64,000 nt of DNA from a phage. Under the pieces are notes generated by a model, which was not told the DNA's origin, searched no databases, and worked only from the letters and a program-made list of their open reading frames with translations. The stretch lies in sequence record NC_094493.1; one strand, 5' to 3'. The translations under genes were made by a program, and so were the position numbers. This document shows, in pieces, positions 1 to 20,802 of the stretch; within the stretch, counting starts at the first letter, position 1; each line of letters starts with the position of its first letter.

Positions 1-1212
1 ATAAGCGATCTGCAGCAGAAGCGAATGCCTGACTGCAAGATACCTATGAAAATCAGCAATCAGGACGACATTAAGCGATACCTGATCAGTGCTGGTTGGC
101 TTCCGACAATGTGGAGAACTAAGGATGTAACTAAAGACAGCAAGAAGAAAGCTCTACCTGATGCAGATGTTGATGCACGAGTATATGCATACATGGACGA
201 GCTTTTAGAGTCAGAGTATTGTGACCTAATTATCAACTTCTGGAACAAAACTGATGCTAAGTTTCAGACAACAGTGCACAAGTTCCGAAGCTTTCCTAAC
301 TCCGAAAGGATTAAAAAGGAAGTATTCGGGAAAATACGTAGAAAAGCTAGGGCACTTATTACTTCTCCGCAACTGAAAGATACGTTTGGACACCTATGTC
401 CGAATCTTGAAAAATTGAACGGAGAGATGGCTAAGGATATCGTCTTGTGGTTATCCTTGCGAAACCGCAGATCGGTCCTTGATCCAATCAAGGAGGATAA
501 GGTTGATACTGGTCTTCTTAATCACCCACGCTTGAAGATTGACCATAAGCTTCCTGCTAAAAGCTCCGGATTAACAAACACTTCCAGACAGAAACACAGC
601 ATTTGTGCAAACATGCCTAAACCCTCTCCTAAAGTGGTTATGGGTAAGGAGATGCGTAGCTTGTGGGGTGTTCCTCCTGGATACTTTGAGATCGGTATTG
701 ACGGGTCCAACTTAGAGCAGCTTATCGGGGCTTGGGGTGCCTTTGAGTTCGACAACGGCTTGTATTATGATGTTGTAAGTAACGGGGACGCACACCAAAA
801 CAATGCTGAGGCATATACAAAAGTAGCAGGCAGAGAGGTGTCTCGTAACGACGGTAAACCTATCACGTATGGGGTTATGTACGGGGCACAAAAAGATAAA
901 GTTGCAGATATGCTGGACATCTCTCCAGAGTTGGGACAAAGGGTAATCGATGCACTCTGGGATGCCAACCCTGGTCTTAAGGGGCGCAAAGAGGATCTGG
1001 AGAAATTCTGGGAAGCAACAGGTAAGAAGTTTATCTACTCTTTTGATGGTCATGCTATCTGGACCCGATCTAAACACTCTTTACTTAATGCATACCAACA
1101 GAATGGTGGTGCATCGCTGTGTGACTTGGTTGGGATACTTATGCACCACCAAATGGTGAAGCGTGGGTGGTACGATGAAGGTGTTCGTCGTATTATTTAT
1201 TACCATAAATAA
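1..1212 (+). CDS. DNA polymerase, family A (Pol I/T7-like), C-terminal region; 5' end lies outside the window
   Basis: Frame is open from base 1. Motif A-like IDGSNLEQL and motif B-like RxxxxGKxITYGVMYG; segment after motif B aligns by eye with T7/Klenow up to just before motif C. No HDE motif before the stop. Confidence 0.65.
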   Translation: MSDLQQKRMPDCKIPMKISNQDDIKRYLISAGWLPTMWRTKDVTKDSKKKALPDADVDARVYAYMDELLESEYCDLIINFWNKTDAKFQTTVHKFRSFPNSERIKKEVFGKIRRKARALITSPQLKDTFGHLCPNLEKLNGEMAKDIVLWLSLRNRRSVLDPIKEDKVDTGLLNHPRLKIDHKLPAKSSGLTNTSRQKHSICANMPKPSPKVVMGKEMRSLWGVPPGYFEIGIDGSNLEQLIGAWGAFEFDNGLYYDVVSNGDAHQNNAEAYTKVAGREVSRNDGKPITYGVMYGAQKDKVADMLDISPELGQRVIDALWDANPGLKGRKEDLEKFWEATGKKFIYSFDGHAIWTRSKHSLLNAYQQNGGASLCDLVGILMHHQMVKRGWYDEGVRRIIYYHK

Positions 1213-1458
1213 CATTGTGGCTTCATAGAGTAATCTATGTCGAATAACCTCTTTAACTGCGGGAAGCCTAAACCTTATGGCAAGGTAATCCGCAACGAAG
1301 CGCTCAAAAGAGCGAACGCTCAGAGGCCATTCCGAAAGGAAGTAGACCAGCAAGTGCGGTCGAAATGGGAGGATTCCTGTGGTTGCTTATCATAGGAATA
1401 TGAGATGGTCCGATCCTACGTGAAAACGTATGGCTATGCACGTAATGGTGCGGGGTAG
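1213..1458 (+). other. Structured non-coding insert between the two polymerase ORFs; candidate group I intron
   Basis: In-frame stops separate two same-frame polymerase ORFs. Contains P-like TGCGGGAAG and Q-like AATCCGCAA elements in canonical order, plus several short hairpins with GAAA/GCAA loops. Confidence 0.3.
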
Positions 1459-9451: not shown

Positions 9452-9777
9452 CAGAGATCATCATTTCAACTGCAGGGTATGTGTTCCTGACAATCATTGC
9501 ACTGACCATTCTGGTGGTGGTATATGGAATTGTTATTCTCCCTATTCTTGAGACAATTAGTTTGTGTCGGTGTTGGAGAAAGGCTTACGGTCCACAGCCG
9601 TGGAAGGACTGGCCCCACCTGGTGCACATAGCGTTCTCTTATGCTTATGATCACGCCAGCAGTGCATGCATAACCGGGTATCACGCCCACAACTGGAGCT
9701 GGGAAGGGTTGAGGAAATGGAATGTTACAAAGACCATACCTCTGCGCATGTACAAACCTAAAAACAAAGACAGCTGA
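9448..9777 (+). CDS. putative membrane protein
   Basis: ORF with ATGA overlap; hydrophobic N-terminal helix (AGYVFLTIIALTILVVVYGIVILPIL). Confidence 0.5.
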   Translation: MTEIIISTAGYVFLTIIALTILVVVYGIVILPILETISLCRCWRKAYGPQPWKDWPHLVHIAFSYAYDHASSACITGYHAHNWSWEGLRKWNVTKTIPLRMYKPKNKDS

Positions 9778-9779
9778 TA

Positions 9780-10790
9780 CTTGAAAATTCCTGGCATATC
9801 AAGTATAAGGGGGATTTCTAAAATGGATTTCCTCCTTTTGATATTTCACCGGGCCGGATATTTTAAAATTCTTAGAAAATCAGAAAATGGATCGAAAACT
9901 AAAATGGATTTTTCAGAGTAGGCGCGACAAGCTGAATAACTCATCCTATCGTTTGCACCATATTCCAGGCCACCATTATAGATTTCCCACACATGCTAAC
10001 CTCCCTCTACTAGAACTTCCTCCACTTACCCTTGACCTTCTATGGTAACAATCTAACCACTATCTTGAAGTTGCGGTGCAGCTTTCCAGGTACTCGATCT
10101 ACTTTTCATTTCAGGGCTTGGATTTTCTGAAAATTTTTCTCGATAAATTTCTCAGTACTCGATCTGTTTTTCGTTTTCTGAATCGGATTTTCTGGAAATC
10201 GTTCCGGCTCTCGACCTGAAATTTTTGGGGACGAAATCGATTTTTCGTTTTCAGAAATGGATTTTTAAAATTTCTATATGGGAATATTTTAGTGGATACT
10301 ATTTTATAGGAAATTGTTACGGAGGGTAATTAGCGTGCTAATTAAATTTATTAAATGCGAGGAGTTCTCATTTAGAATTTTGAATGATAATCATTCTCGT
10401 TTGCAGAATAACGGGCAGGCCCGGTGATTGTCTCCCGGCCCCTACTGCCCCGGCTTGTTATTATAGTAACACACAGGACAAAGAAAGCAAGAAGTTTTTG
10501 CATAAATTTTTAGACGATAATGATAATCGTTCTCATTTCATGCAGCGCCCATCCCCGGTGGTTGTCTCCCCCGTCACCGGTGCCTGCCGTCCTTTCGATA
10601 GGTATATTTTGCCACCTGGCGGGGCCGCTGTCAACACTTTTCAAAAAAAAAAAATTCTAACCTGATGCGCTGACCGCTGCAACCTGGCGGGGCCAGCCTG
10701 GCAGGGCCTAACTGACCAGGTAGGAGAGAATGAAGGCTTGCAAACCTGGTGGGCCTATGCTATAGGATAGGTAACAATTGAAGAGGAGGT
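9780..10790. repeat. Repeat-rich non-coding region (iteron-like short repeats, tandem ~60-bp repeats, duplicated ~70-bp units)
   Basis: AAAATGGATTT recurs at least four times; tandem repeats at 10088-10275 (GTACTCGATCT...TTTTCGTTTTC...GGATTTTCTG); two related units 10383-10454 and 10515-10590; CCTGGCGGGGCC recurs. Confidence 0.6.
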
Positions 10791-10796
10791 ACAAAA

Positions 10797-10973
10797 ATGG
10801 AAGGTAATATGATCCCCCTGGAAAATGTAGCTATTAATGACGCTGAGGCTATCGCCCTGGTTGAAAAGGCTATGGCGGGAGCGTTGGAACATAAAGAAGA
10901 GTACGAAAAAATGATGGTTAACCTGGCAGGGGCGGCGGCTGGAGAATTCTACCCAAAAAATAATTTTAACTAA
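10797..10973 (+). CDS. small hypothetical protein
   Basis: 58 aa ORF with strong RBS gaggaggt, 7 nt before the ATG. Confidence 0.35.
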   Translation: MEGNMIPLENVAINDAEAIALVEKAMAGALEHKEEYEKMMVNLAGAAAGEFYPKNNFN

Positions 10974-11058
10974 TGGTTGACAGCTCGGACAGTTCTTGTT
11001 ATTCTTATCCTCGCAAGGTGAACAACACCACACCAATTAACAGAGAGGATAAAAAATC

Positions 11059-11256
11059 ATGAACGCCTACGGAATTAAAGTACGTCGCAACACTCGCCAG
11101 GTGGTCACCAATCAAGTGATTTGCCGGGTGGATGTAACCATCAACAACGGGCAAGGCCTTTATAAATTTCGTCGCGGTCATAGCTATACCCTGCAACAGC
11201 TTAACCGTTGCGCCCTGACAAAAGGTCAGATCAACCACTGGTTTAATAAAAAATAA
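11059..11256 (+). CDS. hypothetical basic protein
   Basis: Own TTGACA promoter (~10977); conserved RBS gaggataaaaaatc ATG. Confidence 0.5.
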   Translation: MNAYGIKVRRNTRQVVTNQVICRVDVTINNGQGLYKFRRGHSYTLQQLNRCALTKGQINHWFNKK

Positions 11257-11319
11257 TGTTGACATATGGTCTGACACAAAATACACTGAAATCGCAAAAG
11301 ACACTAAGAGGATAAAATC

Positions 11320-11718
11320 ATGAAAACCACTACCTTTAATTTTGATAATGCGGACTTTTCTTTTTCTGATGTCAAGAACTGCCGCCGTGATCGTGGATTT
11401 TACAAGTCTTATAATCTGGTGGGCCTGGACGATGACAATAATTTGCACGAAGTAGCTGAGATCCGGTATTATGCCGCCGCCAGTGGTAACACTCACTACT
11501 GCGTGTTTTGGATTCACGACAACAAGAACAATAAGTACGGTTATACTGGCGGCAAGGCGAGCGGTCACGGTTACGATAAAGCTAACGCAGCACTTGAGAG
11601 TGCATTAAATGCTATGGAGATCACTGCCGACGGCTGGATCTACGAAGAAGAGTTTTTGTCGGCACTTGCTGACCACCTGGGCTATAAAAAGCACATTGTG
11701 ACATGCGCCCACGAATAA
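11320..11718 (+). CDS. hypothetical protein
   Basis: Promoter TTGACA ~11258; RBS gaggataaaatc ATG. Confidence 0.55.
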   Translation: MKTTTFNFDNADFSFSDVKNCRRDRGFYKSYNLVGLDDDNNLHEVAEIRYYAAASGNTHYCVFWIHDNKNNKYGYTGGKASGHGYDKANAALESALNAMEITADGWIYEEEFLSALADHLGYKKHIVTCAHE

Positions 11719-11800
11719 AAATCATTGACACGCTGCAAAATTTAAGTAAACTAGACACAAAAGGCGGGAATGTTTCCCGCCAGCACAAAGGAAAAAGATC

Positions 11801-12205
11801 ATGAATAAGAACGTACGCCGCATCATGAACGAACTGGCAAACGATGAAAAAATTATTGACATGCACTTAGTGAACATTTGCCGCCGTTGTGTAACCTATA
11901 ACAACCGCGCCGCAAAAGCGCGTGAGATGAACGCAAAAGGCACCTTAAAGCCCTTCCAGGTGGTGGTAAAGGCCATTAAAGATGTAGCTAATACGGCAAA
12001 CCAGGTACAGGGGAACACCAACGAGAGTACCAATATTGATCCGGCTTACATCATGAAACGGATCCGGACCTGCAAGAACAAAGAGCAAGTGTATAACGTC
12101 ATAGACTGGTTGGATTCCATGGGCGACGTGGTTTATAATAGGTTTTCTGCAGCCATTGAGATCCAGCTAGACAGGTTGGACGGGAAAGTACTAAAAACTT
12201 ATTGA
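11801..12205 (+). CDS. hypothetical protein
   Basis: Promoter TTGACA ~11727; leader hairpin ggcgggaatgtttcccgcc (11763-11781); RBS. Confidence 0.55.
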   Translation: MNKNVRRIMNELANDEKIIDMHLVNICRRCVTYNNRAAKAREMNAKGTLKPFQVVVKAIKDVANTANQVQGNTNESTNIDPAYIMKRIRTCKNKEQVYNVIDWLDSMGDVVYNRFSAAIEIQLDRLDGKVLKTY

Positions 12206-12208
12206 GTT

Positions 12209-12252
12209 TATTTTTAGATGGCCTTGACTCCAGGGCCATCGATAAAGTAAAC
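12209..12252 (+). repeat. Conserved ~45-bp intergenic hairpin element, copy 1
   Basis: TATTTTTAGATGGCCTTGACTCCAGGGCCATCGATAAAGTAAAC; inverted repeat GATGGCC/GGCCATC around TTGACT; near-identical copies at 12829 and 16571. Confidence 0.6.
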
Positions 12253-12285
12253 TAATCTCAGTTAAGCGAAAAAGGGGGCTTTAAG

Positions 12286-12405
12286 ATGGGCACTACACGC
12301 CAATACACAAAGGTAACTATTATCGTCTGCGTTGTCGGTTACATCCTGGCGCAAATGTTAATGAGTAGCGCTAACAGTTTTGCAAAATTTTTCTTAAATT
12401 TTTAA
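12286..12405 (+). CDS. small hydrophobic peptide (39 aa)
   Basis: ATG after RBS aaaggggg; predicted single transmembrane helix; below ORF-track size cut-off. Confidence 0.3.
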   Translation: MGTTRQYTKVTIIVCVVGYILAQMLMSSANSFAKFFLNF

Positions 12406-12434
12406 TTGACAAGCTAACTTAGATCGGTATACTT
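12406..12434 (+). promoter_or_regulatory. sigma70-like promoter
   Basis: TTGACA, ~16-17 bp spacer, TATACT; followed by leader hairpin and RBS of gene 12485. Confidence 0.5.
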
Positions 12435-12484
12435 AAACCCGTAAACGGGAAAACTTCCCAGAACACACAAAAGGAGAAAACACC

Positions 12485-12826
12485 ATGACCACTATGACCG
12501 CCGCAGAAAAAGCTATTCAGGTTGCCGCACTGAAAAAACAGATCGCAGACCTTGAGAACAAGATCGATACCTTTGAAATCGACGAGGACAAGTACGACGA
12601 AAACTATGATGAATGGTTAGACGAGATCTACGGCGAAATCATGATCGGAAACATTTCTTTTCTTCCGTCGCGTATCCTCAAGGAGCTAGATCCTATCGCT
12701 TACCGCTGCGGATTTAGCGACTACATCGACAGCCTGGATATTGAGGACGATGAAGAATACCAGGAATTACAGACAGAGTTAGAAGAAGCAAAAGAAGAGC
12801 TTGCGGAGCTGGAAGAAAACGAGTAA
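12485..12826 (+). CDS. hypothetical acidic coiled-coil protein
   Basis: Promoter, hairpin leader, RBS aaaggagaaaacacc ATG; highly acidic. Confidence 0.55.
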   Translation: MTTMTAAEKAIQVAALKKQIADLENKIDTFEIDEDKYDENYDEWLDEIYGEIMIGNISFLPSRILKELDPIAYRCGFSDYIDSLDIEDDEEYQELQTELEEAKEELAELEENE

Positions 12827-12828
12827 GA

Positions 12829-12873
12829 TTATTTTTAGATGGCCTTGACTCCAGGGCCATCAATAAAGTAAAC
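12829..12873 (+). repeat. Conserved ~45-bp intergenic hairpin element, copy 2
   Basis: Near-identical to 12209-12252, placed directly after a stop codon. Confidence 0.6.
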
Positions 12874-12915
12874 TTTATACTGTTAACACTGAACTAATGC
12901 ATAGGAGTTAAAACC

Positions 12916-13161
12916 ATGGCAGCACTAATCACCAAATATTATGCCCCTACCAACACCAAAAGCGCCCGTATCATGGTAAAAGGCTTCGGACGTAAAAAGG
13001 TTTACACCTGGGATTATGCCTTAGACACGGAAGACAACTACACCAACGCGATGACAGATTTTATTAATGAGCTGAACACGCGGATCTTGACAAATTATAA
13101 AATTACCGATATTGCCTATATAGGGGAAGGCGGGATCTGTTTTGTCGGTATCGTCAAATAA
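12916..13161 (+). CDS. hypothetical protein
   Basis: RBS/start region ataggagttaaaaccatggc identical to that of gene 17188. Confidence 0.55.
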   Translation: MAALITKYYAPTNTKSARIMVKGFGRKKVYTWDYALDTEDNYTNAMTDFINELNTRILTNYKITDIAYIGEGGICFVGIVK

Positions 13162-13236
13162 ACTGTTTTTTCGGTGGTCCTGGTAGCAGGGCCATCTATA
13201 AAGATAGTTTATCAATACAATGAAAGGAGAAAGTAC

Positions 13237-13590
13237 ATGATCAGCGGGGCAAGTTTTATTATTGGCGCTATTGCTACGGCTTTAATTGTAAACAAGATCC
13301 AATCTAAAAATGAAAAAGAGAGCAACGCGCTCACAGAATACCCATTTTGGGTATTCAACGACAATGAAGACTACATTATCAAGTACAAGAATGAGAAGGG
13401 CGACCAGGTAACACCGCGACCGATCCCAGCTTACAAGATGCAAGAAACACTATACCGCCTAAAGGCTGGAGGCGCAAAAATCGTAGACTTTTGGGGATAT
13501 GATTGCAAGGATCAGGAGGTTATAAAGCGCCGTATCCGGGCTATTCAGGCCAATATTGAAGTTAGCAAGGGGGGAATATATGAAGATTAA
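13237..13590 (+). CDS. hypothetical protein with N-terminal transmembrane helix
   Basis: RBS aaaggagaaagtac ATG; preceded by a degenerate copy of the 45-bp element (13168-13205). Confidence 0.5.
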   Translation: MISGASFIIGAIATALIVNKIQSKNEKESNALTEYPFWVFNDNEDYIIKYKNEKGDQVTPRPIPAYKMQETLYRLKAGGAKIVDFWGYDCKDQEVIKRRIRAIQANIEVSKGGIYED

Positions 13591-13777
13591 TTTTGAGAAG
13601 ATTGTAAAGCGATCTCATGATTCCAAAGAGCTGCCGGAACGACGCCAGCGCAACAATAAACTGAATAAGCCAAAAAGATTTGGGAAGATCTGGCGGAATC
13701 ATTATGATCGTAAATTGCCGGGCCTACTTTTGGAACGTGAACGACAGGCGGAACGATACCGCCACAAAGGCAAATAA
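13580..13777 (+). CDS. hypothetical basic protein
   Basis: RBS aaggggggaatat ATG; R/K-rich; followed by terminator. Confidence 0.4.
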   Translation: MKINFEKIVKRSHDSKELPERRQRNNKLNKPKRFGKIWRNHYDRKLPGLLLERERQAERYRHKGK

Positions 13778-13784
13778 CAACCAA

Positions 13785-13812
13785 CGCCCCGCCATTGTGC
13801 GGGGCTTTTTTA
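13785..13812 (+). terminator. Intrinsic terminator
   Basis: Hairpin cgccccgccattgtgcggggc followed by TTTTTT. Confidence 0.6.
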
Positions 13813-14023
13813 TTTCTATCCTACGAATAGCGCCCCTGGTTGGCCCTGTAAACGCCATAAAAGCCCCTACCTATGCAATCCCCTTTCTTAACCTGAAAAC
13901 AGCGTCTAGGGCCGTTTTATGGCGTTAAAAATGTTATTGACAGTGATTTTATTTAAAGCTTGACACCTTGGAATAGTCCGGATATACTGACCACATCAAA
14001 GCAAGAAGGAAGGAGTAAACGCC

Positions 14024-14284
14024 ATGCGTAAATTGAAAAATTTTGATAAGGTAGATGTAGTACTGAATAATTTTTACTACTGCAATAATAAAGCCGTTTG
14101 GTGGCGTGATAGTTCCACCGATAAAGTTAAGGCGCGCTTTCTCCAAGGGCACTGGCAAGGCCGTCCAGTGATTAAAATCATGGGGCAATTGGTAGCGTTT
14201 AAAAATTGCCGCCGTGTTGATGACGTTGAAGAGATTTTAAGCATTTTGCGCCACAATAATTTAAAAAATAGTGTTGACAAGTAA
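14024..14284 (+). CDS. hypothetical protein
   Basis: Promoter-like TTGACA at ~13938/13962; RBS aaggaagga. Confidence 0.5.
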   Translation: MRKLKNFDKVDVVLNNFYYCNNKAVWWRDSSTDKVKARFLQGHWQGRPVIKIMGQLVAFKNCRRVDDVEEILSILRHNNLKNSVDK

Positions 14285-14300
14285 ATCTCGATAAGTATAC
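14273..14300 (+). promoter_or_regulatory. sigma70-like promoter
   Basis: TTGACA, 16 bp spacer, TATACT; leader begins with hairpin ggcgggaaaacttcccgcc (14311-14329). Confidence 0.5.
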
Positions 14301-14358
14301 TTAAACACACAGGCGGGAAAACTTCCCGCCACTAACAAAGAAAATAGGAGAAAATATC

Positions 14359-14982
14359 ATGACCACCGTTAACATTACCACAGGTTACAATTTATCTTTC
14401 GACGTGCTGACCGATGAACAAAAAGAAAAAGCTATTGAAATGGTCCGCGAAAGAGAAGAACACAGCGGGGATAACTTTTTTGCAGAAAGTGTAATTGAAG
14501 ACTATAAAGAACATATCTTTCCAGAGTATGGCCTTGAAGATACCAAGGTACATTGGTCCGGCTTTTGGTGCCAGGGCGACGGCGCGTCAATCAGTGCGGA
14601 AAACGTGGATTTAGAAAAATTCTTGCGTAAAGTCAAGTCTCTGACTAAATTCCGCTCAATTCGTCACTTGTTCGGCACAATGCACGATGGCGAGCTATCC
14701 GCAAGTGTTGAGCGTGATCCATATAGCCGCTATAGTCACGAAAACACTGTAAGCGGGTACATCGATACTACATGGCTAGACCTGACAGCCAAGCAAGAAA
14801 GTAAGGTTGAAGAGCTGGAAGAGCTGATCACCGAGACGGTACGGGAGCTATCCCGCAAGGTTTATGTAGACCTGGAGGAGGCCTATCTTGAACAGTTTAC
14901 TACCGAAAACCTGATCGGCCTTATTGAAGCCAATGATTGGCGGTTTAATGTGGATGAATATGGGGAGATGAGTTTTTCATAA
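14359..14982 (+). CDS. hypothetical acidic protein
   Basis: 207 aa ORF behind promoter, leader hairpin and RBS ataggagaaaatatc ATG. Confidence 0.6.
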   Translation: MTTVNITTGYNLSFDVLTDEQKEKAIEMVREREEHSGDNFFAESVIEDYKEHIFPEYGLEDTKVHWSGFWCQGDGASISAENVDLEKFLRKVKSLTKFRSIRHLFGTMHDGELSASVERDPYSRYSHENTVSGYIDTTWLDLTAKQESKVEELEELITETVRELSRKVYVDLEEAYLEQFTTENLIGLIEANDWRFNVDEYGEMSFS

Positions 14983-15071
14983 ATAAAGTGTTGCAATAAT
15001 CTAAAAACCTGCTATATTAAAACTCAAGGGGCGAGATGACTTGCCCCACACAAAACAAAGAGGAAAACATC

Positions 15072-15452
15072 ATGAAAAACACCACCAAGGCTATTGACAC
15101 CGTTATGTTTAACCTGGTTACATTCCGTGAAGATATGAAAGATCTTCCACGTGAAACTGTGTGCGACCATATCGAAAACTATCGCAAACTAATCAAAGAG
15201 TTGCCTTTAAAACGTGACCAATATGCGGCTAACGCTATGCTTAACGCCATGATCAAAAAGATGATTCAGTGTGATTTAACTCTGGCCTATGATTATGCAG
15301 GTGGTCGTTTTGCAGTATACAATCAGCCCGTGCCTGGTATGAGCACCACCGAAGAATTGCACGCGCTCAATCTAAAACAAGATGTGTGGGATAGTATGCC
15401 CCGCGTGGTGGTATGGGTAGAAAGCGGAAAGATTTACGGCGATAATTTTTAA
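15072..15452 (+). CDS. hypothetical protein
   Basis: Leader hairpin ggggcgagatgacttgcccc (15028-15047); RBS gaggaaaacatc ATG. Confidence 0.55.
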   Translation: MKNTTKAIDTVMFNLVTFREDMKDLPRETVCDHIENYRKLIKELPLKRDQYAANAMLNAMIKKMIQCDLTLAYDYAGGRFAVYNQPVPGMSTTEELHALNLKQDVWDSMPRVVVWVESGKIYGDNF

Positions 15453-15462
15453 TCAGGTAACA

Positions 15463-15491
15463 GGCGGCGGCATATTTGCCGCCTTATTGTT
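15463..15491 (+). terminator. Putative intrinsic terminator
   Basis: Hairpin ggcggcggcatatttgccgcc followed by a T-rich tract. Confidence 0.45.
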
Positions 15492-15519
15492 AATCAGAAC
15501 TGTAAAAGAGGTACATAGA

Positions 15520-15891
15520 ATGGAATTTATTATTTTGGCTATATTAGTTGCCTTGTTTAACGCCTGGATCGCTGGCAAGATGGGCAGATCCGCCTTTTTA
15601 TGGTTTATTATATCTATTTTCCTGGGAGTGGTTGCAACTATTGTATTGGTTATCCTTGCAATTGTTGACAAGGGGAATAATAGAAAGGGTAAAGTATTTT
15701 CAGACCTGTACGACGCTCAAACATTTGTCAACGCCTACTACAGCGATCTTCCAGTCTCCCTACGTTGCAGCCTTGCACAACAGGTTTTCGATGAAGCTAA
15801 AACCAGAGATCACGCCCATGAGATTTGTTTAACTGAGGCGGATCGCCTATTTGAGAGGAATAGAAAATATGTGGACCAGCCGTTTAAATAA
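15520..15891 (+). CDS. putative membrane protein
   Basis: RBS aaagaggtacatag ATG; two predicted transmembrane helices followed by a soluble C-terminal domain. Confidence 0.5.
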   Translation: MEFIILAILVALFNAWIAGKMGRSAFLWFIISIFLGVVATIVLVILAIVDKGNNRKGKVFSDLYDAQTFVNAYYSDLPVSLRCSLAQQVFDEAKTRDHAHEICLTEADRLFERNRKYVDQPFK

Positions 15892-16090
15892 TGCCACGTT
15901 AATTAATCCCTTTAGTGAAGATTTGAAGCCAGCCGCCTGGCGCGATGGATTCAATAACGAAAGCTTTATTTTCAGGCCTGATCTTAAGGAATTTTATAAC
16001 AATGGATCGAACAACGACAGAGATAATTTTTCTTGTAATGTGCGTGGTGATAATACTCCTGGGGGCCATTGCAAACCACGTCACTGCTAA
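15869..16090 (+). CDS. hypothetical protein
   Basis: ORF overlapping upstream gene end, RBS gagga; frame assignment uncertain; other small transmembrane-peptide ORFs overlap here. Confidence 0.3.
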   Translation: MWTSRLNNATLINPFSEDLKPAAWRDGFNNESFIFRPDLKEFYNNGSNNDRDNFSCNVRGDNTPGGHCKPRHC

Positions 16091-16234
16091 CAGGAGGGAA
16101 GGGGGAGACGATGACAACCAAGGATAAGCCCCGCACCGATAAGGTGCGCCGTGTTATGGTATGGCTTGAGATCATCGCCCTTGAAATATTGTTAGGCGTA
16201 GGGATGTACTTTATCGCTGTAAGTAACTGATAAC

Positions 16235-16265
16235 GGCCCCCAATCCCTGGGGGCTTAACTTTTTC
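16235..16265 (+). terminator. Intrinsic terminator
   Basis: Hairpin ggcccccaatccctgggggc followed by a T-rich tract. Confidence 0.55.
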
Positions 16266-16366
16266 AAAAATTTTTCTTCCCGGGTGTTGCAATCCGGTCC
16301 GGAATATGGATAATAACAATCAACGGGGAGCAATCCCCACCACAAAGACTAGAAAGGAGAAACAAA

Positions 16367-16567
16367 ATGAGCAATAATATCCGCGTTATTAACTTCAAAA
16401 AAGAAGAAAAAATTGCCGTGCTGATTGACGGTCAAGAAATCTTTAAAGGTGATTATGAAGATCATCAAACGGCGATTAGTATCACTCGCGTGATTGGTTA
16501 CCACAATTTTTACCCTCAAGGCGCTGAGGCAGCAGTAAAACGAATTAAAGAGATTGTAGGCCTGTAA
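16367..16567 (+). CDS. hypothetical protein
   Basis: Promoter-like TTGCAA ~16287; leader hairpin ggggagcaatcccc; RBS aaaggagaaacaaa ATG. Confidence 0.5.
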   Translation: MSNNIRVINFKKEEKIAVLIDGQEIFKGDYEDHQTAISITRVIGYHNFYPQGAEAAVKRIKEIVGL

Positions 16568-16570
16568 AAT

Positions 16571-16614
16571 TTATTTTTAGATGGCCTTGACTCCAGGGCC
16601 ATCGATAAAGTAAA
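16571..16614 (+). repeat. Conserved ~45-bp intergenic hairpin element, copy 3
   Basis: Near-identical to copies at 12209 and 12829. Confidence 0.6.
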
Positions 16615-16658
16615 TTTAAACCCTGTTAAAATAATCAGTGCAAAAAGGAGTAATGATC

Positions 16659-16958
16659 ATGTTTATCCAGGCTAATAATCTTTATTTCTTTGATGGTCAG
16701 ATCGTAGACGGCGTGGAAGTAGAGATCACTGGGTGCCCCGGTGGTCAGGCTATGATGTTCCGTAATAATGCCTTTGATGATCCCTGTATCCTCCTGGCGA
16801 TGGAAGTTACCAAGCTGGATGATAAGAAAACGCTGATTGACTATTCTATTAAAGATCATCCTGATTATCATATGATTCATGGCGATCTGTGTATCGTTGA
16901 CCGTGACAAGGTGGGCGGCATTGTGATCGCTATTGTGAACGATGTTTTCTCTAAATAA
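16659..16958 (+). CDS. hypothetical protein
   Basis: RBS aaaggagtaatgatc ATG at 16659. Confidence 0.5.
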   Translation: MFIQANNLYFFDGQIVDGVEVEITGCPGGQAMMFRNNAFDDPCILLAMEVTKLDDKKTLIDYSIKDHPDYHMIHGDLCIVDRDKVGGIVIAIVNDVFSK

Positions 16959-17187
16959 TTCCGGCAAATGATGCAAAATAAGGCCCCTGGCAGGGCCTGC
17001 AGCGATATAATCACATAAAGGCTATGCGGTTGCATGGCCTTTATTATTTTAGCGTTACAGCTGCCCCCAAGGCGCTTAAAAAATTTTTAAAGAAGTACTT
17101 GCATCAAGTCCTACAATATGGATAATAAAGGGTGTCGGGGGGCGGTGAGGCCTCCAATCATTAACCAGATAGATAGGAGTTAAAACC

Positions 17188-17472
17188 ATGGCTATTGTTA
17201 CCGTTGGCGATGTAGTAGAAATGGAAGCCAAATACTTAAAAGCGGGTATGCATATCATACGGAATGATCAAGAATTGTTATTAACCATGGTTGAATATAA
17301 TCCCGGTCAGGATTATCCTAGCGTTGACTACTTTTTCCAGTATGTTGATGAAGAATTAAAAGAGGATGAGGCTTATCAGGGTGAATTTTGTAATTTCTTT
17401 TGCCCTGATGAGGTTGTAAAAGTTATTTATCAACCTGGCGTACCTTTCCCGTTGCACGCCATCAATAAATAA
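17188..17472 (+). CDS. hypothetical protein
   Basis: Promoter-like TTGCAT ~17098; RBS/start region identical to gene 12916. Confidence 0.55.
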   Translation: MAIVTVGDVVEMEAKYLKAGMHIIRNDQELLLTMVEYNPGQDYPSVDYFFQYVDEELKEDEAYQGEFCNFFCPDEVVKVIYQPGVPFPLHAINK

Positions 17473-17534
17473 GCCTGGCGGGGCCGAAAAGGCCCCTCCT
17501 GAAATTATGAAAAAATAAAGAGGGGTAAATCATC

Positions 17535-17762
17535 ATGATTGAACAAGTTAAACGCGCCGAGGCTATTAATGGCAATGTGATCTATTTTGTCAGCAAAAAC
17601 GAAAAAGTACCATATGCGGCGGTAATAGTACAGCCTGACGGCAATTATTGGTTTACTGTATACGGATCTTATTCTTTTGGGCGTCCGGTGCATGATAGAA
17701 TTTTGAAAGTAGCGAACCCTACCGGGAAGAATATCACAGCAGAAAAATTTTTTGAAAAATAG
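17535..17762 (+). CDS. hypothetical protein
   Basis: RBS aagaggggtaaatcatc ATG. Confidence 0.5.
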   Translation: MIEQVKRAEAINGNVIYFVSKNEKVPYAAVIVQPDGNYWFTVYGSYSFGRPVHDRILKVANPTGKNITAEKFFEK

Positions 17763-17793
17763 TTGACATGACCGTATAAGACTGTAGTATATA
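17763..17793 (+). promoter_or_regulatory. sigma70-like promoter
   Basis: TTGACA, then TATATA-like -10; leader hairpin gggggcaagcccc follows. Confidence 0.45.
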
Positions 17794-17838
17794 AATCAAA
17801 GGGGGCAAGCCCCACCAACCACAAAGAGGATAAAAACC

Positions 17839-18018
17839 ATGGCTATTATTGCAAAGACCGAGATTGTAGGGTTAGATTCTATTCTCCTGGCATATGAGGA
17901 AGCTATAGAAATGTATGTGGTTTCCTACGGTGAATATATCCGTGAATATAAATCTGTTGATCTAGCTTTTGAATGTTATATTCGCCAGGTCAATAAAGCA
18001 TATGATGATTATCGTTAA
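17839..18018 (+). CDS. small hypothetical protein (59 aa)
   Basis: Conserved RBS aagaggataaaaacc ATG behind promoter and hairpin; below ORF-track size cut-off. Confidence 0.4.
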   Translation: MAIIAKTEIVGLDSILLAYEEAIEMYVVSYGEYIREYKSVDLAFECYIRQVNKAYDDYR

Positions 18019-18103
18019 AATAGTTTGACAACAATTATAAATCGGGTAGAATGTATTTCGTAGGGCGGCAATGATGCCGCTCACAACTAGAAGAGGGGTC
18101 ATC

Positions 18104-18298
18104 ATGGCGCTTAAAAAACTAACAAGCAATACTCGTTGGGATGAAATCGACGGGGAAGTTTACATTTTCGCCCGTAAACCAGGGGATCAAAAATGGTCAA
18201 AGGCTTTTACTTGCCACCCTGCAACAATAGACCTGATAAAAAGGGAAGGTCTACGTGAAGCAGTATCAAGAAGCCTACTGATCCCTTGTAAAAAATAG
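18104..18298 (+). CDS. hypothetical protein
   Basis: Promoter TTGACA ~18026; leader hairpin gcggcaatgatgccgc; RBS gaggggtcatc ATG. Confidence 0.45.
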   Translation: MALKKLTSNTRWDEIDGEVYIFARKPGDQKWSKAFTCHPATIDLIKREGLREAVSRSLLIPCKK

Positions 18299-18494
18299 TT
18301 GGACAATACGCGGTTACCTGGTAAAGTGTACGACATAGGGCGGGGCAATAAGGCAACGCCCATTAATGAGGGTGGAATCATGTTAGAGAAAATTTTCACG
18401 GTTGTAGTAGTGGGCCTGGCGTTATCGGTTGGAGTAGTTGCAACTATGGCTAACATGATCCTATCTTCCCACGGTATTGGATAAGGTGAATCAA

Positions 18495-18710
18495 ATGATC
18501 ACGAATAAAACAGGTAAAACAGAATTTTTACGCGGCTTGCAGATCGGCAAGCCTGAGATCTGGTATTGCACTAAAACACCACGTGACGAAATGAAAGATT
18601 TTACCGCCACGCTGAAGCGGGTAAAGATATCTATCACGCAGAAAAAAGCCTTGATAGTGGTTGAAGGTGAGATCCCCCAAACCGTTGTTATAGTTGAGCG
18701 TACAGCATAG
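18495..18710 (+). CDS. hypothetical protein
   Basis: RBS aaggtgaatcaa ATG. Confidence 0.4.
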   Translation: MITNKTGKTEFLRGLQIGKPEIWYCTKTPRDEMKDFTATLKRVKISITQKKALIVVEGEIPQTVVIVERTA

Positions 18711-18798
18711 TTTAATTTATAGAGATACCTGAAAATTAACCAATAAAGCATAAACAGGCGGTAACCGCCTTAAACGTAGCAGAAAGAGGATAGACACA

Positions 18799-19083
18799 AT
18801 GAAAAAGATGATCGCAGTGGTTGCCCTGGTTGTTGGACTTAATGCGCCTGTAATGGCTAAAGAGCTGGCAAAAGAGGTTAATCTAACGGATATTCATGCC
18901 GTCAATCAAATCGGGGTTACTTATCGCTTATGCCTTGCCGCTAAAACTTTTAATGACGGCACAACAGAGTACTACGGATTCGAGGGTATCCGGTGCGGTG
19001 AGCTTGCTCGCGACCTTAAGGAAGATCCAGATCTGGAAGATCTACCCATCACCGTAAACGGTAAAGCTTACGTAAACCGTTAA
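18799..19083 (+). CDS. putative secreted/periplasmic protein
   Basis: N-terminal signal-peptide-like MKKMIAVVALVVGLNAPVMA; leader hairpin ggcggtaaccgcc; RBS agaggatagacaca ATG. Confidence 0.55.
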   Translation: MKKMIAVVALVVGLNAPVMAKELAKEVNLTDIHAVNQIGVTYRLCLAAKTFNDGTTEYYGFEGIRCGELARDLKEDPDLEDLPITVNGKAYVNR

Positions 19084-19233
19084 CCATGAGAAAGATAACC
19101 ATCACCTTGGGGATTGTGGTAGCAATACTGGCGCTCTTTCCCCTTATGGTTAGGTATGTGCTGATCAGTGTTGTCCTGATAGTCAGTGATCTATTGGAAA
19201 CGGTTGGCACCTTGTTTTAAAGAGCGATAAAAA

Positions 19234-19425
19234 ATGAATATCGAACAAGTTAGAAAGGTATTAGCGGTACTGCGTTATCATAATCATAGAAAGGTCATAG
19301 ACGATCCTGATTATGTTGATTCAAGCCTGGAAGAGGATACACTACAAGCCATAAGTAACATGCAAGAATTGCTAAAGCGCATGACAGAGAAAAACCGACC
19401 GGACTACATAGGCGAAAAAATATAA
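19234..19425 (+). CDS. hypothetical protein
   Basis: ORF; followed by a hairpin plus T-run (19441-19472). Confidence 0.45.
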   Translation: MNIEQVRKVLAVLRYHNHRKVIDDPDYVDSSLEEDTLQAISNMQELLKRMTEKNRPDYIGEKI

Positions 19426-19440
19426 TATTTATAAACTACA

Positions 19441-19472
19441 AAACAGGGCTTGCAATGGTCCTGTTTTTTGTT
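19441..19472 (+). terminator. Putative intrinsic terminator
   Basis: Imperfect hairpin acagggcttgcaatggtcctgt followed by TTTTTT. Confidence 0.45.
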
Positions 19473-19484
19473 ATACTTATTCCA

Positions 19485-19530
19485 CGGCAGGCACCTGGCG
19501 ACGGGGGGAGACAATCACCGGGCCTGCCTG
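19485..19530. repeat. Inverted copy of the element found at 10413-10454 and 10553-10589
   Basis: Reverse complement matches core CCGGTGATTGTCTCCC plus flanking GGCAGG and GGTGCCTGCC; the element is itself a long hairpin. Confidence 0.5.
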
Positions 19531-19640
19531 TCATATAAGAACTATAAAAACCGTTGACATCTGCCATGGGGTGGGGTAACATTTATCTTGAAGGGGCAAG
19601 ACGTTTGCCCCACACAACAACCAGAAGAGAGGAAAACATC

Positions 19641-19913
19641 ATGTCAAGCTGGATTAATCAAGAGGTCGAATCACGTTTTAATGCTATATGGGATCTCATC
19701 GAAAAAGAGGACGGAACATCAAGCCCTTACCTCAATAATCTTGAATTCCATTTTGTGGAAGCGATGAACGCAGAACATGATCACGAAGGTGGTGCGGACG
19801 AGTTCGCTAAAGGGTATGGCTTCAACAATGCCAACGAAATGATCGAGGCGGTTGTACTCCAGGCTGAGGAAGATTATCAATTAAAAACGCTTGAATTCTG
19901 CCGCCGTAAGTAA
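19641..19913 (+). CDS. hypothetical protein
   Basis: Promoter TTGACA 19555 with -10 TAACAT; leader hairpin ggggcaagacgtttgcccc (19593-19611); RBS gaggaaaacatc ATG. Confidence 0.55.
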   Translation: MSSWINQEVESRFNAIWDLIEKEDGTSSPYLNNLEFHFVEAMNAEHDHEGGADEFAKGYGFNNANEMIEAVVLQAEEDYQLKTLEFCRRK

Positions 19914-19974
19914 TAAGATAATGACACGGGCCAAAAGGCCCACTAAACCAGGACCACATAAAGAGGAAAACATC

Positions 19975-20238
19975 ATGAAACGTCTTGACCAGCTCAAACT
20001 AGTTCAGTACATGGCTTACAGAATTCTTGAAGTCCAAAAAGGTAGCAAAAAAGAAGTTTGCGAGAAAGCGTACAAGATCTTTACTCGCAAAAAAGACGAT
20101 TGGATGTTACGCCAGACTAAAAAGGCTGACATCTTGGGGTACCTGGAAGAAGAGATCCGGCTTGAAGAACAAGAAGAGATCCGCCGTAGTGAGGCAGATT
20201 ATCAGGCAGCTTGGGAAAACTGGATGAGCAACAAATAA
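19975..20238 (+). CDS. hypothetical protein (basic, coiled-coil-like)
   Basis: Leader hairpin gggccaaaaggccc; RBS gaggaaaacatc ATG identical to gene 19641. Confidence 0.55.
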   Translation: MKRLDQLKLVQYMAYRILEVQKGSKKEVCEKAYKIFTRKKDDWMLRQTKKADILGYLEEEIRLEEQEEIRRSEADYQAAWENWMSNK

Positions 20239-20382
20239 TACAACAAGTTACATGGTCAGGGGCAATAAAGCCCCTTGATTACATAAAAATTATGCTATCC
20301 CTTGTTGACAGGGATCGGCAGTTTTGCTATATTCTTTTTTGAAGGGAAGTTGTAAGAAAATTAACTAAGAGGTAAAAACACC

Positions 20383-20802
20383 ATGAACATTAAATCTGAT
20401 AATCCGGCATATAGCTTTGATAACGCTTTTTGTCACGGTCCGGCGGCGAAAGGATTCGAAATCGATGGTAAACTAGTTATTGTTAATGTTGACGGGGAAG
20501 AGGTTGCAGTATATCCGGTGGCAGACGTTAAAAGCCGTCTACAATGCCGCATGGATGTTACCGCCTATCAGCTTGATCCGGTCCGGGTAGTTGCCCTGGT
20601 CCTGGAAGAAGAAATTAAAGCAATGCACCACAGCAACAAGTTTATTGGTGACGCTCAAGATAATATGCAGGTATGCCGCTATAAAGTTAATGAAGTGCTT
20701 AAAGAGTACGGCTATAAGGATTTAATGATCAAGCGTGATGAAAAATTCCGCTACCGTAACGACCTGGCAAATCGGATTTTTGAAATATACGAATCATTAT
20801 AA
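20383..20802 (+). CDS. hypothetical protein
   Basis: Promoter TTGACA ~20305 with -10 TATATT; RBS agaggtaaaaacacc ATG; terminator follows. Confidence 0.55.
   Translation: MNIKSDNPAYSFDNAFCHGPAAKGFEIDGKLVIVNVDGEEVAVYPVADVKSRLQCRMDVTAYQLDPVRVVALVLEEEIKAMHHSNKFIGDAQDNMQVCRYKVNEVLKEYGYKDLMIKRDEKFRYRNDLANRIFEIYESL

What the first reader, a model, noticed from the sequence alone, without database searches (positions are those of the whole stretch)
10413..19530. ~45-bp hairpin element present in inverted orientation ~9 kb apart
The element at 19485-19530 is the reverse complement of sequences at 10413-10454 and 10553-10589 (core CCGGTGATTGTCTCCC flanked by GGCAGG and GGTGCCTGCC). Inverted copies bracketing most of the small-gene array could be recombination or inversion sites, remnants of a mobile element, or a shared protein-binding site.
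Basis: seen in the sequence. Interest (0 to 1): 0.45.

Follow-up and report, generated by a model that had tools for sequence, protein, structure and literature searches.

The report
Conserved promoter-flanked hairpin cassette in phage
The three copies are real and are paralogues of a conserved non-coding stem-loop that sits between facing promoters (some with iron-regulator Fur boxes) in rV5-like phages, so it is most likely a transcribed regulatory RNA element and not a DNA inversion site.

Summary
The 16-nt core CCGGTGATTGTCTCCC lies at 10421 (+), 10555 (+, 1 mismatch) and 19506 (-); no shuffle reached three matches. The window is an rV5-like coliphage (Vequintavirus).

All three copies are syntenic in every Vequintavirus checked. 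A 10.8-kb query spanning them aligns collinearly on one strand, so there is no sign of inversion.

The same layout, a main module plus an inverted distal copy 7-10 kb away, recurs in Mydovirus-like contigs and in phage anhysbys. Distal-type copies alone were also seen in Seunavirus, Certrevirus, Justusliebigvirus and ZCKP1.

Each copy is a GC-rich hairpin with the near-invariant core in its apical loop. A sigma70-type promoter reads it in the GGGAGACAATCACC sense, with conserved hexamers and divergent spacers. Copies A and B also lie just downstream of near-consensus Fur boxes placed inside promoter-like sites on the other strand.

No Rfam family matches, and the ORF annotated over A/B is broken in relatives.

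Best reading (confidence about 0.4): paralogous, bidirectionally transcribed regulatory RNA hairpins forming a cis/trans antisense circuit, partly Fur-gated. Function and active strand remain unproven. The same motif (about 21-31 nt) is multi-copy in unrelated freshwater phage contigs.

The parts
10080..10265 (.). AT-rich 65-74-bp direct repeats carrying GATC, resembling oriC 13-mers. They form the left part of the roughly 750-bp non-coding region towards which the reverse-strand promoters of A and B point.
   Evidence: Repeat families D3 and D9; sequence read. Relatives have AT-rich/GATC repeats and an A6T6 tract at the same place.
10380..10409 (+). Fur box 1 (palindrome GAATGATAATCATTC, 10382-10396) inside a promoter-like site: TTGAAT (10380-10385), 18 nt, CAGAAT (10404-10409). 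It reads into copy A.
   Evidence: Sequence. This stretch plus the element is 80-88% conserved in non-coding DNA of distant genera. Alignment.
10407..10466 (+). Copy A stem-loop. The core is at 10421-10436 in the apical region (CCGG / CCGG stem), inside a GGGCAG / CUGCCC stem and an AAUAAC / GUUAUU base.
   Evidence: Orthologues are aligned.
10463..10490 (-). Reverse-strand sigma70-like promoter reading copy A in the GGGAGAC sense: TTGCTT (10490-10485), 16 nt, TGtTACTAT (-10 at 10468-10463).
   Evidence: Read. One search's own best pick for the window is CTTTCT-16-TATAAT (score 7.5), which uses the overlapping TATAAT at 10465-10460. In 11 other lineages the promoter at this position has conserved hexamers and unrelated 16-17-nt spacers. 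The scanner finds it independently in Mydo and PVP-SE1.
10498..10534 (+). Fur box 2 (GATAATGATAATCGTTCTC, 10516-10534) overlapping a promoter-like site: TTGCAT (10498-10503), 18 nt, GATAAT (10522-10527). It reads into copy B.
   Evidence: 2 mismatches to the Fur consensus; 0.08 matches expected. The -10 becomes GATAAC in most relatives, so the promoter call is weak.
10542..10589 (+). Copy B stem-loop. The core is at 10555-10570, with stem CCGGUG (10555-10560) / CACCGG (10575-10580).
10606..10634 (-). Reverse-strand promoter reading copy B in the GGGAGAC sense: TTGACA, 17 nt, TGgCAAAAT.
   Evidence: 10 of 12 matches, with the extended -10 TG.
19440..19477 (+). Terminator of the upstream gene (19440-19467). 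Its loop holds the -35 (TTGCAA) of a + strand extended -10 promoter (TGtTATACT, ending at 19477) that reads into copy C.
   Evidence: The same terminator/promoter overlap is conserved in 16 distal copies from six genus-level lineages.
19485..19530 (-). Copy C stem-loop, the inverted distal paralogue. The core is at 19506-19521 on the - strand. Outer stem GGCAGGC / GCCUGCC; inner stem CCGGUGA / UCGCC-A-GG.
   Evidence: Wobble asymmetry.
19554..19582 (+). Second + strand promoter (TTGACA, 17 nt, TAACAT) between copy C and the next gene (ATG near 19641), followed by a 5' leader hairpin.

Best explanation
The three copies are paralogues of one regulatory cassette. It is a GC-rich stem-loop whose apical loop carries a near-invariant sequence: GGUGAUUGUCUCC on one strand and GGAGACAAUCACC on the other. 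The stem-loop lies between facing promoters, so it is probably transcribed on both strands.

Copies A and B are tandem and lie in the phage's largest non-coding region. Each sits about 20 nt downstream of a near-consensus Fur box embedded in a + strand promoter-like site. Each is also read from the opposite side by a sigma70-type promoter that points away from the gene array, towards AT-rich GATC repeats.

Copy C is the inverted distal paralogue. A promoter overlapping the upstream gene's terminator reads it in the gene direction, as the leader of the next early transcription unit.

Because C is inverted, + strand RNAs from A and B are complementary over 19-29 nt to the + strand leader at C. 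They are also complementary to the reverse transcripts of their own modules.

Proposed mechanism: loop-loop (kissing) antisense pairing. A hairpin RNA that is controlled by Fur (iron) in the main module would modulate transcripts carrying the complementary loop.

Shown here: the repeats, their synteny, the conserved promoter hexamers, the Fur-box matches, the hairpins with a conserved loop, the complementarity, and the absence of coding potential or inversion.

Inferred only: actual transcription, Fur binding, RNA pairing and its outcome.
For: Identity and synteny:
- The window is a Vequintavirus.
- All three copies lie at the same positions in 5 genomes and in metagenome contigs.
- A main module plus an inverted distal copy 7-10 kb away recurs in Mydovirus-like contigs (L248, L215, L247) and in phage anhysbys (main copy at 43.4 kb, distal at 53.2 kb).
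- Distal-type copies alone were retrieved from ZCKP1, Seunavirus, Certrevirus and Justusliebigvirus.

Promoters:
- The promoter reading the GGGAGAC sense keeps its -35 and -10 hexamers and a 16-17-nt spacing, while the spacer sequences are unrelated across 11 lineages.
- The unbiased scan finds it in Mydo and PVP-SE1, with 5 and 4 sites against 1.3 and 0.9 expected.
- It is also found at B and C in the window.
- The distal copy always has its -35 in the loop of the upstream terminator and an extended -10, TTTTTGTTATNCT.

Fur boxes:
- Box 2 has 2 mismatches to the consensus.
- The box-plus-element stretch is 80-88% conserved in otherwise divergent genera.
- Fur boxes also accompany the distal copies of CR3, POP15, GEC_vB_MG, FKP3 and L248.

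Hairpin:
- The core lies in the apical loop, with lineage-specific stems.
- The inner stem of the distal copy gives 74 of 77 standard pairs, including 16 G.U, when read as CCGG-sense RNA. Read as the other strand it gives 59 of 77. One C-G to U-A double change is seen.

Non-coding status: the overlapping ORF is broken in relatives, and there is no Rfam match.
Against: - RNAalifold finds no consensus structure for the E1 orthologues (-2.4 kcal/mol) or for the freshwater family (about 0).
- Folding energies do not separate the two strands (mean difference +0.6 kcal/mol).
- The wobble bias at copy C rests on about 7 versus 1 independent events, as I counted them by eye (one-sided p about 0.035). 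The closing stems of the main module do not show it: read from the sequences, CB7 and Mydo favour the other strand.
- The + strand Fur-box promoters are weak calls. The -10 of B is GATAAC in most relatives. In the Certrevirus distal copies the Fur box lies about 35 nt further from the element.
- Copy C has no convincing - strand promoter, and A and B have no clear + strand terminator.
- The flanks of A and C do not co-vary consistently. SYGMH1 matches, but nomine, Phage 203 and JeffSchatz do not.
- I found no transcriptome for this phage group.
Confidence: 0.4

Rival explanations
1. The core is a DNA operator. It would be the binding site of an unknown, highly conserved host or phage protein placed just downstream of promoters. 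The hairpin potential would then be incidental.
For: Conservation is mainly at the level of primary sequence. About 21-31 nt are near-identical between Vequintavirinae and an unrelated multi-copy family in freshwater contigs, where no RNA structure is conserved. The motif occurs in both orientations relative to genes. The loop consensus hardly changes across hosts from Escherichia to Pectobacterium.
Against: The motif is asymmetric and not palindromic. No protein is shared between the freshwater loci and the window. The stems around the core change while staying paired, and the G.U versus A.C asymmetry is specific to one strand, which a duplex DNA site does not predict.
Confidence: 0.2
2. The main locus is a replication origin. 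Tandem promoters would make G-rich primer or R-loop RNAs that run into an AT-rich unwinding region, as in ColE1, T7 or T4 oriF. The hairpin would be the 5' domain of the primer. The Fur-box transcript would be its antisense inhibitor. Copy C would be a second, diverging origin or a by-product.
For: This is the largest non-coding region. It has iteron-like AT-rich GATC repeats and an A6T6 tract. Two to three tandem reverse-strand promoters point into it in several genera. The transcripts would be G-rich, even in Aeromonas phage 2L372X, which lacks the core. The region lies about 8 kb downstream of the polymerase and primase-helicase genes.
Against: There is no GC-skew inflection apart from the loss of coding bias. 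The freshwater family has a copy in nearly every intergenic gap, which is too many for origins. No initiator protein or DnaA boxes were identified. The distal copy is followed directly by genes.
Confidence: 0.15
3. The copies are only duplicated promoter/terminator/5'-stabiliser cassettes, of the kind described as PeSL cassettes in T4-type phages. They would have no interaction in trans, and the shared sequence would reflect common descent or gene conversion.
For: The window is full of repeated terminator and promoter-plus-leader-hairpin families (D1, D2, D6, D8). The array is mosaic between relatives. In SYGMH1, A and C carry the same flank variant, which suggests gene conversion.
Against: The core is far more conserved than its flanks across two subfamilies and in unrelated contigs. 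A generic stabiliser hairpin does not need that. The Fur-box association is retained in both main and distal modules.
Confidence: 0.15
4. The copies are recombination or inversion sites, or ends of a mobile element, that flip or excise the 9-kb small-gene array.
For: The copies are in inverted orientation and bracket the array.
Against: The order is collinear on a single strand in the rV5-like genomes listed, and the junctions are intact in 112 of 121 and 96 of 149 records. All array genes stay on the same strand as the flanking genes. No recombinase domain was found. The arrangement is stable across genera. Mosaic breakpoints fall inside the array (query 7361 and 8435), not at the copies.
Confidence: 0.03

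Closest known systems
Kissing-loop antisense RNA control systems: ColE1 RNA I / RNA II, R1 CopA/CopT, phage P22 sar, phage P4 CI RNA with seqA/seqB/seqC, P1 c4 (from general knowledge)
   Same: A short stem-loop has a conserved apical loop. Facing promoters would give complementary RNAs. As in P4 and P1, extra copies of the complementary sequence elsewhere in the genome could be targets in trans.
   Different: No transcript has been demonstrated. There is no sequence similarity to these systems. The element is in a large lytic phage, is coupled to Fur boxes, and has an inverted copy 7-10 kb away whose position is conserved.
Fur-repressed small RNAs such as RyhB (from general knowledge)
   Same: A near-consensus Fur box overlaps a promoter-like site directly upstream of a short structured non-coding sequence with an exposed C/U-rich stretch.
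   Different: There is no similarity to RyhB and no Rfam hit. No canonical terminator follows A or B. The element is phage-encoded. Fur regulation is untested.
PeSL (promoter-early stem-loop) cassettes of T4-type phages (from general knowledge)
   Same: These are repeated intergenic units that combine a terminator-like stem-loop with an early sigma70 promoter in arrays of small early genes. Here the -35 lies in the terminator loop.
   Different: This unit carries an additional hairpin with a sequence-invariant loop that is conserved across subfamilies. The copies sit at fixed positions and are not scattered at cassette boundaries.
Lambda nutL/nutR and HK022 putL/putR (from general knowledge)
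   Same: Inverted copies of an RNA element lie just downstream of diverging promoters. In the GGGAGAC sense, A/B and C are read divergently.
   Different: The leftward transcripts of A and B meet no genes. There is no boxA/boxB similarity, and no antiterminator is known in these phages.
Pseudo-ToxI non-coding RNA of the rV5-like phage PhiTE (PMC3475682)
   Same: It is an expressed non-coding RNA locus in a phage of the same subfamily. This shows that these phages use small RNAs.
   Different: [quoted passage not shown] It is a tandem 36-nt repeat that mimics an antitoxin. Its resemblance to the core is limited to GGTGATT.

Membership tests
Site-specific inversion system (Gin/Hin/Cin type) | Both orientations of the bracketed segment occur among genomes or isolates. 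| tested here: not met
   The 10.8-kb query aligns on one strand and in one order in the rV5-like records. The junctions are intact.
Site-specific inversion system (Gin/Hin/Cin type) | A recombinase gene lies adjacent to or within the invertible segment. | tested here: not met
   No resolvase or integrase domain was found in the largest ORFs of the array. The neighbouring ORFs match only PHROGs of unknown function. Not every small ORF was scanned.
Mobile element (MITE- or IS-like) remnant | Patchy, non-syntenic distribution with target-site duplications. | tested here: not met
   The positions are fixed in Vequintavirus, in Mydovirus-like contigs and in anhysbys. No flanking duplications were seen.
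Fur-regulated promoter | A 19-bp Fur box (GATAATGATAATCATTATC) overlaps the -35/-10 region. | tested here: met
   Box 2 has 2 mismatches. The inner 16 nt of box 1 match 15 of 16 consensus positions, and box 1 lies between TTGAAT and CAGAAT. The arrangement is conserved across genera.
Fur-regulated promoter | Fur binds, and transcription responds to iron. | not testable with these tools
   This needs gel-shift or ChIP experiments, or RNA sequencing in a fur mutant or under iron chelation.
Structured RNA family (Rfam-type) | A match to a curated covariance model. | tested here: not met
   Only a group I intron elsewhere in the window reaches threshold. Nothing relevant scores at E of 10 or below over 10000-11000, and nothing at E of 1 or below in the relatives.
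Structured RNA family (Rfam-type) | A consensus secondary structure supported by covariation. | tested here: inconclusive
   RNAalifold finds no consensus. However, single-sequence folds always place the core in a loop. The inner stem of the distal copy keeps 74 of 77 pairs, with one double change and many G.U pairs.
Cis/trans antisense RNA pair | Promoters on both strands face each other across the element. | tested here: met
   The reverse-sense promoters are supported by conserved hexamers and by the scans. The forward Fur-box promoter-like sites are seen, and are the weaker calls.
Cis/trans antisense RNA pair | Both transcripts are detected and they pair. | not testable with these tools
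   No transcriptome of this phage group was found.
Replication origin of the R-loop or primer-RNA type | A promoter directs transcription into an AT-rich unwinding element with repeats. | tested here: met
Replication origin of the R-loop or primer-RNA type | Replication initiates at the site. | not testable with these tools
   The skew profile is uninformative.

The most novel reading that the evidence does not exclude
An iron-sensing (Fur-gated) antisense RNA switch in large lytic phages. It would be conserved across Vequintavirinae and Stephanstirmvirinae. Hairpin RNAs with an invariant loop would control either firing of an R-loop-type replication origin or a set of early transcripts. The roughly 21-31-nt loop motif would be an ancient, horizontally shared phage RNA or DNA signal that also occurs in many copies in uncultured freshwater phages.
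Probability: 0.15. Interest if true: 0.8.

Novelty: new variant of a known kind. Interest (0 to 1): 0.5.

Why it matters
rV5-like and phAPEC8-like phages are widely used therapy and biocontrol candidates, yet their regulation and replication origin are unknown.

A conserved non-coding cassette that couples host Fur boxes to a sequence-invariant hairpin would be the first regulatory signal defined for this group. It would suggest that a strictly lytic phage reads the host's iron status.

It also gives a concrete target for deletion or loop-swap experiments. Finally, it flags an ORF that is annotated in public records but is not a gene.

Tried and rejected
- Host origin: BLAST of 10340-10700 against all complete E. 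coli genomes found nothing.
- Exact-core scans: the IMG/VR and metagenome scans returned mostly chance hits. One common prophage coding gene holds the 16-mer with unrelated flanks.
- Rfam: no family on either strand, in the window, the relatives or the freshwater loci.
- Coding: the 93-aa ORF 10384-10665 is broken by stop codons in L301 and by a frameshift in Phage 203.
- PhiTE pseudo-ToxI: it lies at a different locus.
- Shared protein: none between the freshwater loci and the window. The flanking proteins match only families of unknown function.
- Pairing to host stable RNAs: the CCGG-sense motif is complementary to RNase P RNA at about nt 40-50 (dG -30 to -34 kcal/mol; 0-2 of 100 shuffles). 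With 28 motif/target tests this is marginal, and I do not claim it.
- Strand choice by folding energy: no difference.
- A-C co-variation: inconsistent.
- Core as a -35 element, or as a sigma54, sigma32, CRP or DnaA site: checked by eye and no fit.
- GC skew: uninformative.
- Literature searches on Fur boxes in phages and on Vequintavirinae transcriptomes found nothing relevant.

Full report
**1. Observation**

The core CCGGTGATTGTCTCCC occurs at three places:
- 10421-10436 on the + strand, exact;
- 10555-10570 on the + strand, with one mismatch;
- 19506-19521 on the - strand, exact.

Allowing three mismatches these are the only matches in 64 kb. The expectation is 0.35, and no shuffle out of 100 reaches three. 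The repeat finder extends the A/C inverted pair to 29 nt at 93% complementarity, and the B/C pair to 19 nt at 95%. Copy C resembles A over its 5' half and B over its 3' half. Copy C folds much better than shuffled sequence (-29.5 kcal/mol, z = -3.55). A and B do not stand out.

**2. Context**

The window is an rV5-like coliphage of the genus Vequintavirus. Copies A and B lie in a non-coding stretch of about 750 bp (about 10050-10795). To their left are 65-74-bp AT-rich direct repeats that carry GATC (10080-10265).

The 93-aa ORF 10384-10665 is annotated as a hypothetical protein in some records. In close relatives it is broken by stop codons or by a frameshift, so it is not a gene.

Copy C lies between the terminator of the gene ending at 19425 and the promoter of the next gene. 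All flanking genes are on the + strand, and their products match only families of unknown function.

**3. Not an inversion or a mobile remnant**

- A query covering 9600-20400 aligns in one order and on one strand in rV5-like genomes. Its interruptions fall inside the mosaic array, not at the copies.
- The junction queries are intact in 112 of 121 and 96 of 149 records.
- No recombinase domain was found in the largest ORFs of the array.
- The three copies are syntenic in all Vequintavirus genomes examined.

**4. Deep conservation**

The stretch made of Fur box plus element (window about 10380-10438) is 80-88% identical in non-coding DNA of otherwise divergent phages. These include PVP-SE1, Mydo, Hena1, CB7, Kashira, F1M1E and phAPEC8-like phages.

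The distal copy, with its terminator and promoter, is likewise found in anhysbys and ZCKP1 (Phapecoctavirus), GEC_vB_MG (Seunavirus), CR3 and POP15 (Certrevirus) and FKP3 (Justusliebigvirus).

In Mydovirus-like contigs the distal copy lies 7.3-7.5 kb from the main module and is inverted relative to it. In anhysbys the two copies are 9.8 kb apart. Where both copies were located, the layout 'main module plus inverted distal copy' is therefore ancient.

**5. Anatomy of a module**

*Promoter reading the GGGAGACAAYCACC sense.*
- In the main module this promoter lies on the strand opposite to the genes. Across 11 lineages the -35 (TTGCAA, TTGATC, TTGACC, TTGACT, TTGACA) and the -10 hexamers persist at a 16-17-nt spacing, while the spacer sequences are unrelated.
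- The neutral scanner finds the promoter in Mydo and PVP-SE1, with 5 and 4 sites against 1.3 and 0.9 expected.
- In the window the sites are:
  - TTGCTT, 16 nt, TACTAT for copy A. This is my reading. One search's best pick there is the weaker CTTTCT-16-TATAAT.
  - TTGACA, 17 nt, TGgCAAAAT for copy B.
  - TTGCAA, 16 nt, TGtTATACT for copy C.
- In every distal copy the -35 sits in the loop of the upstream terminator.

*Fur boxes.*
- In the main module a near-consensus Fur box lies about 20 nt from the hairpin on the other side. It sits inside a + strand promoter-like site (TTGAAT, 18 nt, CAGAAT).
- Some relatives carry two or three tandem boxes.
- Fur boxes also accompany the distal copies of CR3, POP15, GEC_vB_MG, FKP3 and L248. 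Copy C in this window has none.

*The hairpin.*
- Single-sequence folds always place the core in an apical loop. The closing stems differ by lineage: CCGG/CCGG, GGGGCG/CGCUCC, GGGG/CCCC.
- RNAalifold nevertheless reports no consensus structure.
- For the inner stem of the distal copy, 74 of 77 cells are standard pairs (16 of them G.U) if the RNA has the CCGG sense. Only 59 of 77 are standard pairs in the other sense. There is one C-G to U-A double change.
- I count about seven independent wobble events against one, which gives a one-sided p of about 0.035.
- The closing stems of the main module do not show this bias. Read from the sequences, CB7 and Mydo favour the other strand.
- Folding energies do not separate the strands either.
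- Signals exist for both strands, and the active strand is unresolved.

**6. A second family with the same motif**

Uncultured freshwater phage-like contigs of about 42-47 kb carry three to six copies per 10 kb of a roughly 100-nt unit. Its most conserved part is CCGGTGWTTGTCTCCCCCGTTYTCAGGTATTGA.

- The unit lies next to a bidirectional terminator and a TATAAT hexamer. It sits upstream of genes, mostly with the GGGAGAC sense on the coding strand.
- No RNA structure is conserved in this family.
- No protein is shared with the window.
- Among 50,697 cultured phage records, the unit matches only Vequintavirinae. The similarity runs about 31 nt, including the 5' flank.

This favours a sequence-specific signal read by something widely conserved. 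It keeps a protein-operator reading alive.

**7. Interpretation**

The best-supported reading is a paralogous regulatory stem-loop cassette that is transcribed on both strands. The inverted orientation follows from each copy being its own promoter-bound unit.

Because C is inverted, + strand RNAs of A and B are complementary to the + strand leader at C and to the reverse transcripts of their own modules. The simplest mechanism is kissing-loop antisense control, gated by Fur in the main module. My confidence is about 0.4.

Rivals and their confidences:
- a DNA operator for an unknown factor (0.2);
- an R-loop or primer-RNA replication origin with antisense control, which fits the AT-rich GATC repeats and the tandem promoters (0.15);
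- plain duplicated promoter/terminator cassettes (0.15);
- inversion sites (0.03).

**8. Comparison and novelty**

The cassette works most like plasmid and phage antisense systems (ColE1, R1, P4, P1, P22 sar) and like Fur-repressed small RNAs. It shows no homology to any of them and matches no Rfam family.

It shares the terminator/promoter overlap with PeSL cassettes of T4-type phages. The known non-coding RNA of this phage group, pseudo-ToxI of PhiTE, lies at another locus.

Searches found no description of this element, and no transcriptome for this phage group. I file it as a new variant of a known kind. Interest is moderate (0.5).

Noticed in passing
L274/L321 (Ga0255090_1000022), L285, L288, L290, L353, L355 (Ga0228700_1000372): Uncultured freshwater phage-like contigs carry 3-6 copies per 10 kb of a roughly 100-nt intergenic unit. 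Its core is identical to the window's motif, CCGGTGWTTGTCTCCCC, extended by CGTTYTCAGGTATTGA. The unit lies next to bidirectional terminators. Among cultured phages it matches only Vequintavirinae.
   Followed up: partly
IMG/VR loci L125-L244: Near-consensus Fur boxes (AATGAKAATSATTCTYRTTT) are very common in diverse viral contigs. They are often palindromic and occur in tandem arrays of 2-5.
   Followed up: no
L122 2640-2770, L124 2670-2800, L123 2690-2790, L376-L378, L381: Distant relatives carry a second conserved element of about 100 nt ('E2': CTACCGGCGATCCACCTTCC...GTTAGCCCCGCCTTTTCGCCGTGGGGTGGCG). It has a long-range stem CGGCGAU / AUCGCCG that co-varies in L250, Tr1 and Hena1. It overlaps a + strand terminator-like hairpin, so alternative pairings are possible. 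Copy B occupies this position in the window.
   Followed up: partly
window 10080-10265 and 10219-10270: There are three 65-74-bp AT-rich direct repeats with CTCGATCT motifs resembling oriC 13-mers (GATCTnTTnTTTT). Relatives have an A6T6 tract (GCGAAAAAATTTTTTAGGGG) at the same place. This is a possible origin-like region.
   Followed up: partly
window 10384-10665: This 93-aa ORF is annotated as a hypothetical protein in several GenBank records (for example bas58_0103). It overlaps copies A and B, and is interrupted by stop codons or a frameshift in close relatives, so it is probably spurious.
   Followed up: yes
window 1197-1432: A group I catalytic intron (Rfam RF00028, 64.7 bits, E = 4e-14).
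   Followed up: no
window 12205-12253, 12826-12874, 13161-13209, 16568-16616: A 49-nt terminator-like hairpin repeat family (AGATGGCCTTGACTCCAGGGCCATC with its flanks) occurs between small genes. Promoter-plus-leader-hairpin families (D2, D6, D8) are also present. These are regulatory cassettes of the PeSL type.
   Followed up: no
GenBank records MG065646-MG065690: Records named 'Campylobacter phage' with host C. jejuni are 96-100% identical to E. coli rV5-like phages over these regions. The host label looks doubtful.
   Followed up: no
window 10421-10441 versus E. coli rnpB, about nt 40-50: The CCGG-sense motif (GUCUCCCCCG) is complementary to CGGGGGAGAC in RNase P RNA. The duplex energy is -30 to -34 kcal/mol, reached by 0-2 of 100 shuffles. 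After 28 comparisons this is only marginal.
   Followed up: partly
window 10643-10654: An A12 homopolymer run downstream of copy B varies in length or is replaced in close relatives.
   Followed up: no
L379 (Aeromonas phage 2L372X, Plateaulakevirus): This phage keeps the tandem Fur boxes, the GGCAGG start and a reverse-strand promoter (TTGCAC, 17 nt, TATACT). The core hairpin is replaced by a CT-rich tract, which would be GA-rich in the reverse transcript.
   Followed up: no
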